Source of the DNA: Shigella phage SHSML-45
Length of the DNA stretch: 64,000 nucleotides
Reading direction: 5' to 3' (one strand)
Sequence record: KX130863
Shown here: positions 54,573 to 58,373 of the stretch, piece after piece
Numbering within the stretch: the stretch's first letter is position 1
Layout: each line of letters opens with the position of its first letter
Notes under the pieces: model-generated
What the model saw: the letters and a program-made list of their open reading frames with translations, nothing else
Told to the model about the DNA's origin: nothing
Databases searched by the model: none
Program-made: the position numbers and the translations under genes

Positions 54573-54622
54573 GAAACCAATTAGCCCCTATATGGGGCTT
54601 TTTGTGTATTTGGGATATGTAA

Positions 54623-54931
54623 ATGAGCGATCAGGTAAATCAAAACTATGAAGGACACGTTGACGACCAGTCCATCATGCTTTGGGAGAAGGAGGGAGAA
54701 CAAGTAAGACTAACCGTATCTGAATTTCGTGGGAATCTATACATGGGAATTCGTTACTGGCTCCAAGATATTACTGGAGAGTGGTTTCCAACGAAATCCG
54801 GCTTCTCTTTTCCTTATACCCTAGAAACTACGTCACAGCTATTCTACGCTTTTACGCAAATCCTCAGTGAATCCGAGGTCTTGCATGAAGTACAGAAACG
54901 AGCTGAAGAACTCAAAGCCAAGAATGCCTAG
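54623..54931 (+). CDS. hypothetical protein (102 aa)
   Basis: ORF. Confidence 0.55.
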   Translation: MSDQVNQNYEGHVDDQSIMLWEKEGEQVRLTVSEFRGNLYMGIRYWLQDITGEWFPTKSGFSFPYTLETTSQLFYAFTQILSESEVLHEVQKRAEELKAKNA

Positions 54932-54958
54932 TTCTTGGCTTTTTCTTTATAAATGTAC

Positions 54959-54987
54959 TTGCTTTCGACTCAGTTTTCATATATAAT
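54959..54987 (+). promoter_or_regulatory. sigma70-type early promoter (TTGCTT-N17-TATAAT)
   Basis: Consensus hexamers; leader TATTTATATAAATTGATGAGAG. Confidence 0.6.
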
Positions 54988-55018
54988 ATTTATATAAATT
55001 GATGAGAGATATAAATAA

Positions 55019-55990
55019 ATGACTAATGTAAAAGAATTTATTAAACGCTGTCAAGAAGCATATTATCAGGGTATGTCTTTAATCTCTGATGAGGAGTATG
55101 ATTGCCTGGTAAAACGCTTCCCGTTAGAAGAAGAGATCGGGCCTAAGGGTGATATTCCACACCTATATCGTATGTATTCTTTACAGAAAGTTTATTATAA
55201 CCGTGGGGATAAATCACCATTTAATCCTTTAGGTCAGGTAGAAACTGATAAGTTAGATGGTTGTGCAATTTCTCTGCTATATATTAACGGTGAATTTGTT
55301 CAAGCATTAACCCGTGGTAATGGTATTCTGGGAAATGATGTCACAAGCAACGTAAGATTGCTGAACATCCCTAAAAAGATTTCCCAAAAAGTACCTACTC
55401 AAATCACTGGTGAAGTTCTAATTACAAAAGAAGTAGAAAATAAACGTAACTTTGCCTCTGGTGCTATTAACCTCAAAGATAGTGATGCTTTCATACAACG
55501 CATTGGAGAAGGCGGTTTAATCTTTGTTGCTTATGGTATCCAATGTTCTGCTGAAGCTGTAGGTATTACAGAAGCATACTTAAAAGATATGCTTTGGCTA
55601 GAGAATGAGAACTTCTTAACAGTTGTTAATGTGCGTTCCTTCTTTAAATGGATTCCGACGGACGGTAAAGTTGTTCGTATTAATGACAACAACAAATTCT
55701 TCCGTGAGGGCTGGACAAATAAATTCCCTCGTGGAGCATTCGCCATTAAAGAGGATGAAGAAGGCGAGATTACAACTCTTACTAAAGTTGAATGGCAGGT
55801 AGGGGCTTCTGGTAAAGTAACTCCAGTTGGTTATTTCGAACCGGTAATTATTGATGATGCTACGATTGTTAAAGCGACTCTTAATAACGTTGATTATATT
55901 AACTCTCTCGATCTAGAGATCGGTTGCCAGATTCGAGTGATTCGTGCCGGTGGTGTAATCCCGTGCATAGTAGAGCGAGTATACGATTAA
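55019..55990 (+). CDS. NAD-dependent DNA ligase, N-terminal adenylation/OB fragment
   Basis: LigA-like N-terminus (EEYDCLV) and KxDG adenylation motif (KLDG). Confidence 0.75.
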   Translation: MTNVKEFIKRCQEAYYQGMSLISDEEYDCLVKRFPLEEEIGPKGDIPHLYRMYSLQKVYYNRGDKSPFNPLGQVETDKLDGCAISLLYINGEFVQALTRGNGILGNDVTSNVRLLNIPKKISQKVPTQITGEVLITKEVENKRNFASGAINLKDSDAFIQRIGEGGLIFVAYGIQCSAEAVGITEAYLKDMLWLENENFLTVVNVRSFFKWIPTDGKVVRINDNNKFFREGWTNKFPRGAFAIKEDEEGEITTLTKVEWQVGASGKVTPVGYFEPVIIDDATIVKATLNNVDYINSLDLEIGCQIRVIRAGGVIPCIVERVYD

Positions 55991-56040
55991 TACATAACCC
56001 TTTGCTACCCATCTACCATATCGGAATTATAAAGTGGTTA

Positions 56041-56069
56041 TTGACATTTTCGCCGCTTAGGTATATACT
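56041..56069 (+). promoter_or_regulatory. sigma70-type promoter (TTGACA-N17-TATACT) in the ligase spacer
   Basis: Near-consensus hexamers. Confidence 0.55.
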
Positions 56070-56133
56070 ATTATCATTCAGTTGAGGGATAGAAAGTTAT
56101 GGCGAGGGTAAGCAAAGTTAGTTAAAATTGTAG

Positions 56134-56162
56134 TTGCTAAATGCTTAAATACTTGCTATAAT
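56134..56162 (+). promoter_or_regulatory. sigma70-type early promoter (TTGCTA-N17-TATAAT) in the ligase spacer
   Basis: Consensus hexamers plus leader ATTTATATAAATTGATAAGGAAG. Confidence 0.55.
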
Positions 56163-56192
56163 ATTTATATAAATTGATAAGGAAGAAATTTG

Positions 56193-56972
56193 ATGAAAAT
56201 CGAAATTCCAACACAATGTCCCTCTTGTGGTTCTAAGCTCGATCTTGTCAACGGACAATTATTCTGTCGTAATAAGTCCAACTGTCCAGCTCAATCAAGT
56301 AAGTTAATTGAGAACTTCTGTACAAAAATGAAGTTAAAGGGTTTTGGCCCGAAAACTATTGAGAAGCTGGAGCTGACGAAGATTTCAGAACTATTTTACC
56401 TAACCGAAGAAGATTTGGTTAGAGCCGTGGGTAGCAAGGTTGCCGCTAAGTTAATTAGCGAATTAAATACTAAAGTTCGCGGAGACATTGACTTTGGTTC
56501 AGTTCTCGGTTCTTTAGGAATCCCTCTAATTGGAGAGGTTGCAGCAAAGAAATTGTCCCAAAATTGCACCAGTTTTCAAGATGTGAGAGCTGATGGCAAA
56601 GCTGGAGAAAATTATAAAGCCTGGCTAAATTCCCCACAAGGCAAGGATGTTATCGAATTACCGTGGAAATTCACAACTGGTATTAAAGGTGCTAAAGCTG
56701 AGGTCATCATCACTGATGGTCTAGTAGCCCAACCAAACGGAATAACGGTATGTATTACCGGATCTTTGCAAGATTTTGCAAATAGAACGGATGCAACAAA
56801 CTATTTAGAAGGTCTAGGATATACGGTTAAGAAATCCGTTACCAAAGACGTCAAATACCTAATCTGTGAGGATGAATCGAAGCGTTCTTCCTCATCTTAT
56901 AAGAAAGCCGAAACGAATGGGATAGAAATCCTGTCGATTAAAGAACTATTGGAGAAAAATAATAATGTCTAA
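56193..56972 (+). CDS. NAD-dependent DNA ligase, C-terminal fragment (Zn finger, HhH, BRCT-like)
   Basis: CPSCGSKL..CRNKSNCPAQ zinc finger at N-terminus; start taken at ATG 3 nt inside the track ORF. Confidence 0.7.
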   Translation: MKIEIPTQCPSCGSKLDLVNGQLFCRNKSNCPAQSSKLIENFCTKMKLKGFGPKTIEKLELTKISELFYLTEEDLVRAVGSKVAAKLISELNTKVRGDIDFGSVLGSLGIPLIGEVAAKKLSQNCTSFQDVRADGKAGENYKAWLNSPQGKDVIELPWKFTTGIKGAKAEVIITDGLVAQPNGITVCITGSLQDFANRTDATNYLEGLGYTVKKSVTKDVKYLICEDESKRSSSSYKKAETNGIEILSIKELLEKNNNV

Positions 56973-57732
56973 ACTGAACTGGAACGTAGAAGGTGTAACC
57001 GAGTCTCTGAAAGCAAAAGCCACTGCTCTGGGTGTTGCTGTAATCTCTCAAGAACAAGTAGCTGCTATCGCTGCTGAACTAGCTGCTGAAACTGGCAAAG
57101 ACGTTACTGCTCGCTCTGTTGGCTCTAAGCTGCGTAAAGAAGGTTTCGAAGTACAGAAAGCTAACGAAGTACAGAAATCCCCGTGGACTCCTGAGCAGGA
57201 AGCTGAACTGGTTGATTTCCTGAACGCTCATGCTGGTCAGTATACCTATGCTGAAATCGCTGCTGCTGTAGCTGGTGGTCAGTTCGGTGCTAAACAGGTA
57301 CAGGGTAAGATCCTGAGTCTGGAAATGACCGCTTCTGTTAAGCCAACCGAAAAAGCTGCTGCTGTTCGTTCCTTCACTCCGGATGAAGAAACTGATTTTG
57401 TTAATCAGGTTGTTGCTGGTGCTACTATTGAAGCTATCGCTGCTCACTTCGGTCGCAATATTAAGCAGATCCGTGGTAAAGCTCTGAGTCTGCTTCGTGA
57501 AGGTCGTATTGCTGCTATGCCGGTACAGGAAACTTCAAGTGCTAAAACTCGTGAAGATCTGTTAGAAGGTCTGGATCTGGTTAACATGACTGTTGCTGAG
57601 ATCGCTGAGAAAACTGGTAAGTCTGAGCGTGGTGTTAAATCTATGCTGTCTCGTCGTGGTCTGGTTGCTAAGGACTATGATGGTGCCGCTAAGCGTGCTA
57701 AACTGGATGCAAAAGCTGCGGCTGCTGTATAA
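56965..57732 (+). CDS. Ala-rich DNA-binding-like protein with four tandem HTH-like repeats
   Basis: Four ~60-aa repeats each with an I-A-x-x-x-G..R-G-K/V..L-S segment. Confidence 0.55.
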   Translation: MSKLNWNVEGVTESLKAKATALGVAVISQEQVAAIAAELAAETGKDVTARSVGSKLRKEGFEVQKANEVQKSPWTPEQEAELVDFLNAHAGQYTYAEIAAAVAGGQFGAKQVQGKILSLEMTASVKPTEKAAAVRSFTPDEETDFVNQVVAGATIEAIAAHFGRNIKQIRGKALSLLREGRIAAMPVQETSSAKTREDLLEGLDLVNMTVAEIAEKTGKSERGVKSMLSRRGLVAKDYDGAAKRAKLDAKAAAAV

Positions 57733-57791: not shown

Positions 57792-58373
57792 ATGGGGGAG
57801 ATTACCCAGCAGTATCTTAAAACATTATTAAGATATGAGCCTGATACTGGAAATTTTTACTGGCTACCTAGAGAAAATAATCCTGCGTTCAATGCTAAGC
57901 ACGCTAACAAACCTGCAGGCTATATGCATTCATCAGGCTATATTTATATAAAGATAACCTTAGAGTCAGGTATACAAAAATCTATGGGAGCACATAGGTG
58001 GGCCTTTCTATATATGGAAGGAGAAATCCCTGACAAGGTTGATCATAAAAATAGAATTAAAACTGATAATACTTGGAATAACTTACGTGAAGTTACTTCC
58101 TCTCAAAATTCCGCTAATAGCTTTATAGGTAACAAGCTAGGCATTCGTAACATAGAAGTAACAAAAAATAACACATTTAAAGTAACCATATCTAAAAACT
58201 CCAAAGTATTTAGAAAAACCCTAAAAACTCTAGGAGAAGCTCTGTGGTATAGAGATAAGCTGCTTTTAGCCTTGTACGGAGATTTCGCAGCCCTAGATGC
58301 TCTAGATATAGAGAGGGTTAAACCGCAGAATATAGTGGATAACTTTACAGAGGAGTTGCTAGATAATGTTTAA
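57792..58373 (+). CDS. HNH homing endonuclease
   Basis: AHRWAFLYMEGEIPDKVDHKNRIKTDNTWNNLRE motif. Confidence 0.8.
   Translation: MGEITQQYLKTLLRYEPDTGNFYWLPRENNPAFNAKHANKPAGYMHSSGYIYIKITLESGIQKSMGAHRWAFLYMEGEIPDKVDHKNRIKTDNTWNNLREVTSSQNSANSFIGNKLGIRNIEVTKNNTFKVTISKNSKVFRKTLKTLGEALWYRDKLLLALYGDFAALDALDIERVKPQNIVDNFTEELLDNV

What the first reader, a model, noticed from the sequence alone, without database searches (positions are those of the whole stretch)
55019..56972. NAD-dependent DNA ligase split into two genes by a promoter-bearing spacer
The N-terminal adenylation fragment (KxDG motif) ends at 55990 and the C-terminal fragment (zinc finger, HhH/BRCT-like) starts at 56193. The ~200-bp spacer carries two sigma70-type promoters and the conserved leader, so the C-terminal half appears to be expressed as a separate polypeptide. 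The spacer could be a remnant of a mobile insertion.
Basis: partly seen in the sequence, partly recalled or inferred. Interest (0 to 1): 0.5.

Follow-up and report, generated by a model that had tools for sequence, protein, structure and literature searches.

The report
Phage T5 two-subunit NAD-dependent DNA ligase
The window comes from a T5-like phage, and the finding is its long-annotated two-gene NAD-dependent DNA ligase (ligA/ligB) with the known early promoters P-K28b and P-K28a between the halves; it is real and functional but not new.

Summary
ORF 55019-55990 (323 aa) carries domain Ia, the adenylation domain (KLDG, K78) and the OB fold. ORF 56193-56972 (259 aa) carries a four-Cys zinc finger, HhH and BRCT. 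The 202-nt spacer holds two sigma70-type promoters.

This is already known. The window is 97-98% identical to phage T5 and its relatives. [quoted passage not shown] PDB entries 9HU3 and 9I5I hold the orthologous pair from Providencia phage PR1 as two separate chains.

Comparison adds four points:
- The break lies in the OB-to-zinc-finger linker (E. coli LigA about residues 393-400) and loses no residues.
- The break point is identical across Demerecviridae and uncultured relatives down to about 41% identity.
- Both halves are under purifying selection (dN/dS 0.04-0.12).
- A promoter sits about 24-41 nt upstream of ligB in all 32 distinct split loci, although the spacer ranges from 52 to 3820 nt and sometimes carries homing endonucleases or other cargo.

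Read-through, frameshifting, splicing and inteins are excluded. A mobile-element origin of the spacer is plausible but not shown.

The parts
54914..54942 (+). Terminator-like hairpin followed by a T-run, downstream of the p15-like gene and just upstream of the ligA promoter
   Evidence: 12-pair stem followed by TTCTTTAT. It is a pattern match only and is not annotated in the T5 record.
54939..55013 (+). ligA promoter and leader: -35 TTGCTT 54959-54964, -10 TATAAT 54982-54987, and an exact copy of the conserved 22-mer at 54982-55003
   Evidence: This maps onto the promoter annotated in T5 AY543070 at 65284-65358. The 22-mer is, and the sequence. It falls below the threshold of the simple scan because the -35 hexamer matches in only 3 of 6 positions.
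55019..55990 (+). ligA: ligase subunit A (323 aa) with domain Ia, the nucleotidyltransferase domain (K78 in KLDG) and the OB fold
   Evidence: It is 98% identical to T5 LigA. The catalytic motifs I, III, IV and V are invariant across six genera.
55991..56192 (.). The 202-nt intergenic spacer, which has stops in all three frames
   Evidence: It is identical to the T5 spacer in the alignment.
56041..56069 (+). Hexamers of promoter P-K 28b (TTGACA-17-TATACT)
   Evidence: The site lies within the T5-annotated 'promoter P-K 28b', which maps to window 56021-56095. The hexamers are invariant from T5 to Klebsiella, Providencia and L039 relatives, while the flanks diverge.
56134..56162 (+). Hexamers of promoter P-K 28a (TTGCTA-17-TATAAT, with a TG extended -10)
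   Evidence: The site lies within the T5-annotated 'promoter P-K 28a', which maps to window 56114-56188. An equivalent promoter is found in all 32 distinct split loci.
56157..56185 (+). The -10 hexamer plus the conserved early-promoter leader (22-mer, 56157-56178), followed by the Shine-Dalgarno sequence AAGGAAG (56179-56185) 7 nt before the ligB ATG
56193..56972 (+). ligB: ligase subunit B (259 aa) with a four-Cys zinc finger, HhH and BRCT
   Evidence: It is 99% identical to T5 LigB.
56965..57732 (+). D5 DNA-binding protein gene, whose start overlaps the ligB stop (ATGTCTAA). It is co-transcribed with ligB from P-K 28a/b
   Evidence: A D5 homologue directly follows ligB in all the genera inspected. 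Co-transcription is an inference.

Best explanation
This is the two-subunit NAD+-dependent DNA ligase of a T5-like phage (genus Tequintavirus).

An ancestral compact LigA gene was cut cleanly in the linker between the OB fold and the zinc finger. LigA (domain Ia, nucleotidyltransferase and OB) carries the NAD+-dependent self-adenylation and nick-sealing chemistry. LigB (zinc finger, HhH and BRCT) carries the DNA-binding module that wraps the nick. The two are translated separately and assemble without a covalent link into one enzyme, which seals Okazaki fragments and nicks during phage replication.

The gap between the halves is used as a transcription start. P-K 28b and P-K 28a fire just upstream of ligB and drive ligB together with the translationally coupled D5 gene and probably the downstream replication genes. 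No terminator follows ligA in this phage, so ligB is also reached from the ligA promoter.

Shown here: gene structure, domain content, the position of the break, conservation, purifying selection, conservation of the promoters, and the deposit of the orthologue as two chains. Inferred: heterodimer assembly in T5 itself, the catalytic division of labour (from domain-dissection work on bacterial LigA, my own knowledge), and co-transcription with D5.
For: 1. Identity. The region is 97-98% identical in nucleotides to T5, BF23, OSYSP and EC100. The T5 record annotates ligA and ligB as subunits A and B and places promoters P-K 28b and P-K 28a in the gap.

2. Completeness. The two ORFs together cover the full LigA models with only a gap of about 6-10 positions. 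K78, E132, D215 and K244 align to E. coli K115, E173, D285 and K314. The four zinc-finger cysteines are invariant.

3. Clean break. LigA residue 320 aligns to E. coli 390 and LigB residue 3 to E. coli 402. The concatenated junction ...IPCIVERVYD|MKIEIPTQCPSC is collinear with natural fused compact ligases of 555-586 aa, for example P0039 ...IPKIINVLSSGTGRIIAPTECPSC.

4. Two polypeptides. PDB 9HU3 and 9I5I contain separate chains A (339 aa) and B (248 aa), with E=1e-102 and 8e-80. Chain B is 100% identical to Providencia phage PR1 LigB.

5. Ancient and maintained. The break point is the same in Tequintavirus, Sugarlandvirus, Novosibvirus, Priunavirus, Thalassavirus and other Vibrio phages. It is also the same in every IMG/VR locus with at least 41% identity that holds both halves. 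There are 58 split-type clusters among the 150 best representatives. dN/dS is 0.04-0.12 for both halves.

6. Promoter. The hexamers are invariant while the rest of the spacer diverges. A match of at least 9 of 12 positions, with the -10 ending 24-41 nt before the ligB ATG, occurs in 32 of 32 distinct split loci whatever the spacer length, and 27 of those reach at least 10 of 12.
Against: No biochemical data for the T5 proteins themselves were found in the searchable literature. No paper for 9HU3 was found, so the interface, stoichiometry and activity of the complex are not documented here.

The promoter evidence is computational, resting on the T5 record's annotation and on hexamer conservation. 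Per-locus shuffle controls are individually weak for several AT-rich spacers (p up to 0.35). The strength of the argument lies in the consistent position across loci.

Co-transcription with D5 is inferred from gene overlap only.
Confidence: 0.9

Rival explanations
1. A single full-length ligase is made after all, through stop-codon read-through, ribosomal frameshifting or hopping, RNA splicing of an intron, or protein trans-splicing by a split intein.
For: None is specific to this locus. Phages do use each of these devices elsewhere (my own knowledge). In PR1 and Pontus the two ORFs happen to be in the same frame.
Against: The spacer has 4-7 stops in every frame, and in this window ligA is in frame 2 while ligB is in frame 0. 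The frame relation is not conserved between relatives. Spacer length and content vary from 52 to 3820 nt, sometimes with unrelated genes inside. Rfam finds no intron in 54800-57200 at E<=1. The termini of LigA and LigB carry no extra residues compared with fused homologues, so there is no room for intein halves. ligB has its own promoter, leader and Shine-Dalgarno sequence. The PR1 orthologue is deposited as two chains.
Confidence: 0.02
2. The locus is a decaying ligase gene: a disrupted pseudogene in which one or both fragments no longer function, with the phage relying on host LigA.
For: The Pfam adenylation hit covers only profile positions 7-113 of 253, and the N-terminal half is about 70 aa shorter than E. 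coli LigA residues 1-393.
Against: dN/dS is 0.04-0.12 for both halves. The catalytic motifs and zinc-finger cysteines are invariant across genera at about 50% identity. Both ORFs are retained, in the same order, in every complete locus examined. The compact nucleotidyltransferase domain is shared with fused 555-586-aa relatives, so it is a family trait and not decay. The orthologue was crystallised as a complex.
Confidence: 0.03
3. The two products work, at least in part, independently. LigB, transcribed from three promoters and therefore probably in excess, would act as a free nick- or DNA-binding or partner-recruiting protein, for example in handling the characteristic single-strand nicks of T5 DNA. 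LigA would act as a minimal ligase or adenylyltransferase.
For: ligB has two dedicated promoters in addition to read-through from the ligA promoter. A promoter immediately before ligB is universal in the split clade. Minimal nucleotidyltransferase-plus-OB ligases exist in nature (my own knowledge).
Against: The two genes always co-occur and are adjacent, and the orthologues co-crystallise. In bacterial LigA the N-terminal portion alone adenylates itself but does not seal nicks efficiently (my own knowledge, not tested here). The promoters may exist mainly to drive D5.
Confidence: 0.1

Closest known systems
Phage T5 ligA/ligB (T5.116 and T5.117 in AY543070; also BF23 and other Tequintavirus records)
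   Same: It is the same locus, at 97% nucleotide and 98-99% protein identity. The spacer is identical, and the same promoters are annotated there as P-K 28b and P-K 28a.
   Different: Nothing differs within the ligase locus. Outside it, this window has an HNH endonuclease gene between D5 and D6 that T5 lacks.
Two-chain NAD+-dependent ligase of Providencia phage vB_PreS_PR1/PSTCR5 (PDB 9HU3, 9I5I)
   Same: It is the orthologous pair, with the same break point and domain content. Identity is 55% for both LigA and LigB. Its gap is a comparable 192 nt and has an annotated promoter.
   Different: The PR1 record also annotates a terminator straight after ligA. No terminator-like site is predicted in the T5-type spacer.
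Bacterial LigA (E. coli LigA, PDB 2OWO; Thermus filiformis, PDB 1DGS/1V9P)
   Same: All the domains appear in the same order: Ia, nucleotidyltransferase, OB, zinc finger, HhH and BRCT. The catalytic residues are conserved.
   Different: Bacterial LigA is one polypeptide of about 670 aa. The phage enzyme is two chains totalling 582 aa, with about 70 residues fewer in the domain Ia and nucleotidyltransferase part. Scores are far below the NCBIfam equivalog cut-offs (174 and 107 bits against 444).
Compact fused phage or metagenomic LigA of 555-586 aa (P0035, P0039, P0052, P0056, P0062, P0063 and others; viral contig L083)
   Same: They have the same shortened nucleotidyltransferase domain and are 39-45% identical to the T5 LigA half. 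They are collinear across the junction.
   Different: They are uninterrupted ORFs. They probably represent the ancestral state, or possibly re-fusions. A neighbour-joining tree places most of them basal and some nested, without resolution.
'Genes in pieces' made by homing-endonuclease insertion in phages, such as nrdA of Aeromonas phage Aeh1 split by mobE, and the split T4 topoisomerase genes 39/60 (my own knowledge)
   Same: An essential replication enzyme is divided at a domain boundary into two genes whose products reassemble. In some lineages the ligA-ligB gap is occupied by GIY-YIG or T5orf172 endonuclease genes.
   Different: In T5 and in most relatives the gap holds no endonuclease, only promoters. 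Whether an endonuclease caused the split is unknown.

Membership tests
NAD+-dependent DNA ligase (LigA family) | Nucleotidyltransferase domain with the motif I lysine (KxDG) and motifs III, IV and V | tested here: met
   K78-LDG aligns to E. coli K115, GEV (E132) to motif III, DG (D215) to D285, and AIK (K244) to K314. PF01653 scores 84 bits against a cut-off of 27.
NAD+-dependent DNA ligase (LigA family) | N-terminal domain Ia with the NMN-binding residues (E. coli Y22, D32, Y35, D36), which sets NAD+-dependent ligases apart from ATP-dependent ones | tested here: met
   The sequence A14-Y15-Y16...S23-D24-E25-E26-Y27-D28 is present. Y15, Y16, Y27 and D28 are invariant in six genera. The ISDEEYD segment aligns to ISDAEYD of Thermus LigA (domain 1; weak as a stand-alone hit). 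TIGR00575 is matched from position 5.
NAD+-dependent DNA ligase (LigA family) | OB-fold domain following the nucleotidyltransferase domain | tested here: met
   PF03120 scores 78.5 bits against a cut-off of 32.9 over residues 252-321.
NAD+-dependent DNA ligase (LigA family) | Four-cysteine zinc finger, HhH domain and C-terminal BRCT | tested here: met
   C9, C12, C25 and C31 are invariant and align to the zinc-finger region of E. coli LigA from residue 402. BRCT PF00533 scores 35 bits against a cut-off of 21. The HhH Pfam hit is just below its cut-off (25 against 27), but the region aligns to LigA residues 430-530 and to TIGR00575 positions 388-651.
NAD+-dependent DNA ligase (LigA family) | All domains on one polypeptide (the canonical architecture) | tested here: not met
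   There are two ORFs separated by 202 nt with stops in all frames. This is the defining peculiarity of the T5-type enzyme.
NAD+-dependent DNA ligase (LigA family) | NAD+-dependent nick-joining activity | not testable with these tools
   This needs the purified proteins. No published assay was found.
T5-type two-subunit ligase (LigA/LigB of Demerecviridae; phrog_3359 and phrog_3498) | Subunit A ends at ...GG(V/I)IPxIV.. after the OB fold, and subunit B starts M(K)I.IP..CP.CG | tested here: met
   See alignments A1 and A2. phrog_3359 is matched at 1-325 of 325 (E=4e-175) and phrog_3498 at 1-255 of 256 (E=2e-136).
T5-type two-subunit ligase (LigA/LigB of Demerecviridae; phrog_3359 and phrog_3498) | Gene order ligA, gap, ligB, D5 on one strand, with a promoter in the gap | tested here: met
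T5-type two-subunit ligase (LigA/LigB of Demerecviridae; phrog_3359 and phrog_3498) | The two chains form one complex | not testable with these tools
   The only support is the deposit of both PR1 chains in the same PDB entries.
Intron- or intein-interrupted gene | A recognisable group I or II intron fold, or intein blocks at the junction | tested here: not met
   Rfam returns no intron hit. The termini are collinear with fused homologues and carry no extra residues.

The most novel reading that the evidence does not exclude
The fission may be kept not for the ligase's sake but because it puts a transcription start inside the old gene. Every split lineage, from 52-nt to 3.8-kb gaps, keeps a strong sigma70 promoter about 30 nt before ligB, which feeds ligB, D5 and the downstream replication genes. 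On this reading the split ligase would be a case where promoter placement drives and maintains a gene fission. It would also make LigB more abundant than LigA, possibly giving it a ligase-independent role at the natural nicks in T5 DNA.
Probability: 0.2. Interest if true: 0.4.

Novelty: already known. Interest (0 to 1): 0.15.

Why it matters
It matters little as a discovery. The split ligA/ligB pair and the P-K 28a/b promoters have been in the T5 GenBank records since 2004, and an orthologous two-chain enzyme now has PDB entries.

The locus is still a clean natural example of a multi-domain enzyme cut at a domain linker and reassembled from separate chains. That is relevant to engineering split ligases and to understanding gene fission in phages.

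The comparative results here are small additions that I did not find stated in the searchable literature. They are a single conserved break point over a very wide clade, a universally conserved promoter in the gap, and the gap acting as a landing pad for homing endonucleases and other cargo.

Tried and rejected
- Literature. Seven full-text searches looked for a paper on the split T5 ligase, on 9HU3, on the PR1 ligase, or on P-K28a/b, and one further call failed on term length. They found only papers that list 'ligase subunits A and B' in passing (PMC3632103). The ligase review PMC7470946 and the viral replication survey PMC4889955 do not mention the split.
- Rfam. The scan gave only a chance hit (BSR0709, 17.8 bits against a gathering score of 382) on the AT-rich ligA promoter.
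- Cargo ORFs. Pfam on the small ORFs in the Vibrio and Proteus M4H10_20 gaps gave nothing significant.
- Phylogeny. The neighbour-joining tree of 101 N-terminal halves is star-like and cannot say whether fission happened once or whether some fused forms are re-fusions. Linker lengths in fused forms (16-31 aa) gave no signal of re-fusion.
- Mobile-element remnant. About 27 nt at the 5' end of the T5 spacer resemble the 3' end of the GIY-YIG ORF of Salmonella phage SP3. This is equally explained by that ORF running into pre-existing spacer sequence, so it is not evidence of a remnant.
- Structure prediction.
Full report
**What is there**

The window is a T5-like phage. The region 54900-57100 is 97-98% identical to Escherichia phages EC100, OSYSP, T5_ev219, BF23 and T5 itself, and 452 phage records match it.

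- 55019-55990, 323 aa.
- 56193-56972, 259 aa, with an ATG start. A TTG one codon upstream is an ORF-finder artefact.

Pfam places the NAD-ligase adenylation domain and OB fold in the first ORF, and BRCT plus a marginal HhH in the second. Against full-length LigA models the two ORFs are collinear and nearly complete. TIGR00575 is covered at positions 5-378 and 388-651 of 652, and phrog_3869 at 9-381 and 388-654 of 656.

The motif I lysine is K78 (KLDG), which aligns to E. coli K115. Motifs III (E132), IV (D215) and V (K244) are present. The zinc finger is C9, C12, C25 and C31.

**It is already annotated**

[quoted passage not shown] It places two named promoters, P-K 28b and P-K 28a, in the gap, and another promoter in front of ligA. 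BF23, OSYSP, oldekolle and many others carry the same annotation.

Mapped onto the window, P-K 28b is 56021-56095 and P-K 28a is 56114-56188. The consensus scan finds TTGACA-17-TATACT at 56041-56069 and TTGCTA-17-TATAAT (with TG) at 56134-56162, inside those intervals.

The promoter names come from the functional mapping of T5 promoters in the 1980s. That is my own knowledge; the papers are not in the searchable library.

PHROGs has separate families for each half: phrog_3359 and phrog_3498.

**A solved orthologue**

The PDB sequence search returned entries 9HU3 and 9I5I. They contain chain A 'DNA ligase (NAD(+))' of 339 aa (E=1e-102) and chain B 'DNA ligase subunit B' of 248 aa (E=8e-80). Chain B is 100% identical to the ligB product of Providencia phages vB_PreS_PR1 and PSTCR5, which are T5-like phages of genus Priunavirus.

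So a two-chain enzyme of this type has been produced and crystallised with both chains in one entry. I found no paper describing it.

**Where the break lies**

LigA residues 214-320 align to E. coli LigA 284-390, and LigB residues 3-123 align to E. coli 402-530. The break therefore falls at about E. coli residues 393-400, in the linker between the OB fold and the zinc finger.

Natural uninterrupted relatives with the same compact N-terminal half (555-586 aa, 39-45% identity) read straight across this point. For example, P0039 reads ...IPKIINVLSSGTGRIIAPTECPSC, against T5 ...IPCIVERVYD|MKIEIPTQCPSC. No residues are lost, and no interaction tag or intein segment is added.

The phage enzyme is about 70 aa shorter than E. 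coli LigA in the domain Ia and nucleotidyltransferase part. The fused compact relatives share this trait, so it is a family feature and not decay.

**How old and how widespread**

The break point is identical in every genus inspected: LigA ends ...GG(V/I)IPxIVxxxx and LigB begins M(K)IxIPxxCPxCxS. The genera are Tequintavirus, Sugarlandvirus (Klebsiella), Novosibvirus (Proteus), Priunavirus (Providencia), Thalassavirus and other Vibrio phages.

Of 79 IMG/VR loci found with a LigA profile, every locus with at least 41% identity that contains both halves is split. ligA is always upstream of ligB on the same strand. The loci with 36% identity or less (L083-L088) are fused.

Among the 150 best representatives from 1.84 billion proteins, 58 clusters are split-type N-terminal halves that end at the same point. 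A rough neighbour-joining tree places most fused compact forms at the base of this clade and a few inside it. The tree is poorly resolved, so I cannot say whether fission happened once.

Both halves are under strong purifying selection. In unsaturated comparisons, dN/dS is 0.044-0.123 for ligA and 0.075-0.113 for ligB.

**The spacer**

In the window the spacer is 202 nt and 31% GC. It has 4-7 stop codons in each frame, and ligA and ligB are in different frames. Rfam finds no intron. These results exclude read-through, frameshifting and splicing, and the collinear termini exclude a split intein.

Across relatives the spacer runs from 52 nt to 3820 nt, and its content is not conserved:
- A GIY-YIG homing endonuclease in Salmonella phages SP3 and vB_Sen_SG_WM_RUS_R2. 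It is inserted exactly at the ligA stop and ends just before P-K 28b.
- A NADAR-domain gene in Proteus phage Stubb.
- T5orf172 (GIY-YIG-like) genes in marine contigs L078 and L079.
- In L079, additionally a 2OG-Fe(II) oxygenase, a methyltransferase and a carbamoyltransferase.
- Two or three small unknown ORFs in Vibrio phages.

The gap is therefore a tolerated insertion site that mobile genes do use.

**The promoter is the conserved element**

An alignment of spacers from T5-like, Klebsiella, Providencia and L039 phages shows the four hexamers as invariant islands in otherwise diverged sequence.

I scanned the last 110 nt before ligB in 32 distinct split loci. Every one has a sigma70-like match of at least 9 of 12 positions, 27 have at least 10 of 12, and the -10 hexamer ends 24-41 nt before the ATG. 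In the 52-nt marine spacers the -35 hexamer TTGACT overlaps the ligA stop codon.

Shuffle controls for single loci are weak in the most AT-rich cases. The consistent position across loci is the real argument.

The 22-nt block formed by the -10 hexamer and the leader (TATAATATTTATATAAATTGAT) is identical in front of ligA and ligB. It occurs 8 times in the window against 0 expected by chance, each time followed by a Shine-Dalgarno sequence and a start codon. It is the general T5 early-promoter and leader family, not something specific to the ligase.

**How it most likely works**

LigA carries the chemistry: NAD+ binding by domain Ia, adenylation of K78, and nick sealing with the OB fold. LigB supplies the zinc finger, HhH and BRCT module that in bacterial LigA encircles the nicked duplex. 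The two associate without a covalent link.

ligB is translated from its own Shine-Dalgarno sequence (AAGGAAG, 7 nt before the ATG). Its transcripts start at P-K 28a and P-K 28b, and also at the ligA promoter, because no terminator is predicted in the spacer. ligB overlaps the D5 start (ATGTCTAA), and a D5 homologue follows ligB directly in all the genera inspected. The gap promoters therefore probably also serve D5 and the downstream replication genes.

The division of labour between the chains and the co-transcription with D5 are inferences.

**Verdict**

The feature is the well-known split ligase of T5-like phages. Novelty: already known. Interest is low.

Noticed in passing
window 57792-58373 (+): A 193-aa HNH endonuclease ORF (PF13392, E=5.5e-14) lies between D5 and the D6 DnaB-like helicase gene. 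In T5 AY543070 those two genes are only 31 nt apart, so this is a free-standing homing-endonuclease insertion relative to T5.
   Followed up: partly
window 13293, 22562, 24440, 26080, 26909 and 32280 (- strand); 54982 and 56157 (+ strand): There are eight copies of the 22-nt block TATAATATTTATATAAATTGAT, formed by the -10 hexamer and the leader. Each is preceded by an A-rich stretch and a TTGCT-type -35, and followed by a GAGAGG-like Shine-Dalgarno sequence and a start codon. This is the T5 early promoter and leader family.
   Followed up: partly
L030 6965-7606 (Salmonella phage SP3, MG387042 64022-64660): A GIY-YIG homing endonuclease gene is inserted exactly at the ligA stop codon. It is present in only 3 of 50,697 phage records (two phages). 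The last ~70 residues of the neighbouring LigA carry more substitutions than the rest of the protein, which may be a co-conversion tract.
   Followed up: partly
L040 6953-7609 (Proteus phage Stubb): A NADAR-domain protein (PF08719, E=1.8e-31) is encoded in the ligA-ligB gap. It is absent from the closely related Proteus phages M4H10_20 and PM135, whose gaps are 338 nt.
   Followed up: no
L079 6918-10555 (marine viral contig IMGVR_UViG_3300040751_003118): A 3.8-kb cargo lies between ligA and ligB. It encodes a T5orf172 protein, a 2OG-Fe(II) oxygenase, a methyltransferase, a carbamoyltransferase and a weak DUF6071 match, which looks like a possible DNA or nucleotide modification cassette.
   Followed up: no
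L002 619-1092 (phage oldekolle) and L003 618-818 (phage chee24): Some Tequintaviruses carry one or two extra small ORFs between the p15-like regulator gene and ligA. These ORFs are absent from this window and from T5, so this is a second variable spot next to the ligase.
   Followed up: no
window 54914-54942 (+): A 12-pair terminator-like hairpin with a T-run lies between the p15-like gene and the ligA promoter. It is not annotated in the T5 record, which annotates only the terminator equivalent to window 54583-54599.
   Followed up: no
Proteins P0035, P0039, P0052, P0056, P0062, P0063, P0065 and P0066: These are uninterrupted 'compact' NAD+-dependent ligases of 555-586 aa. They share the shortened nucleotidyltransferase domain of the T5 type, and some sit inside the split clade in a rough tree, so they may be re-fusions. 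Their source organisms and genomic contexts were not examined.
   Followed up: partly
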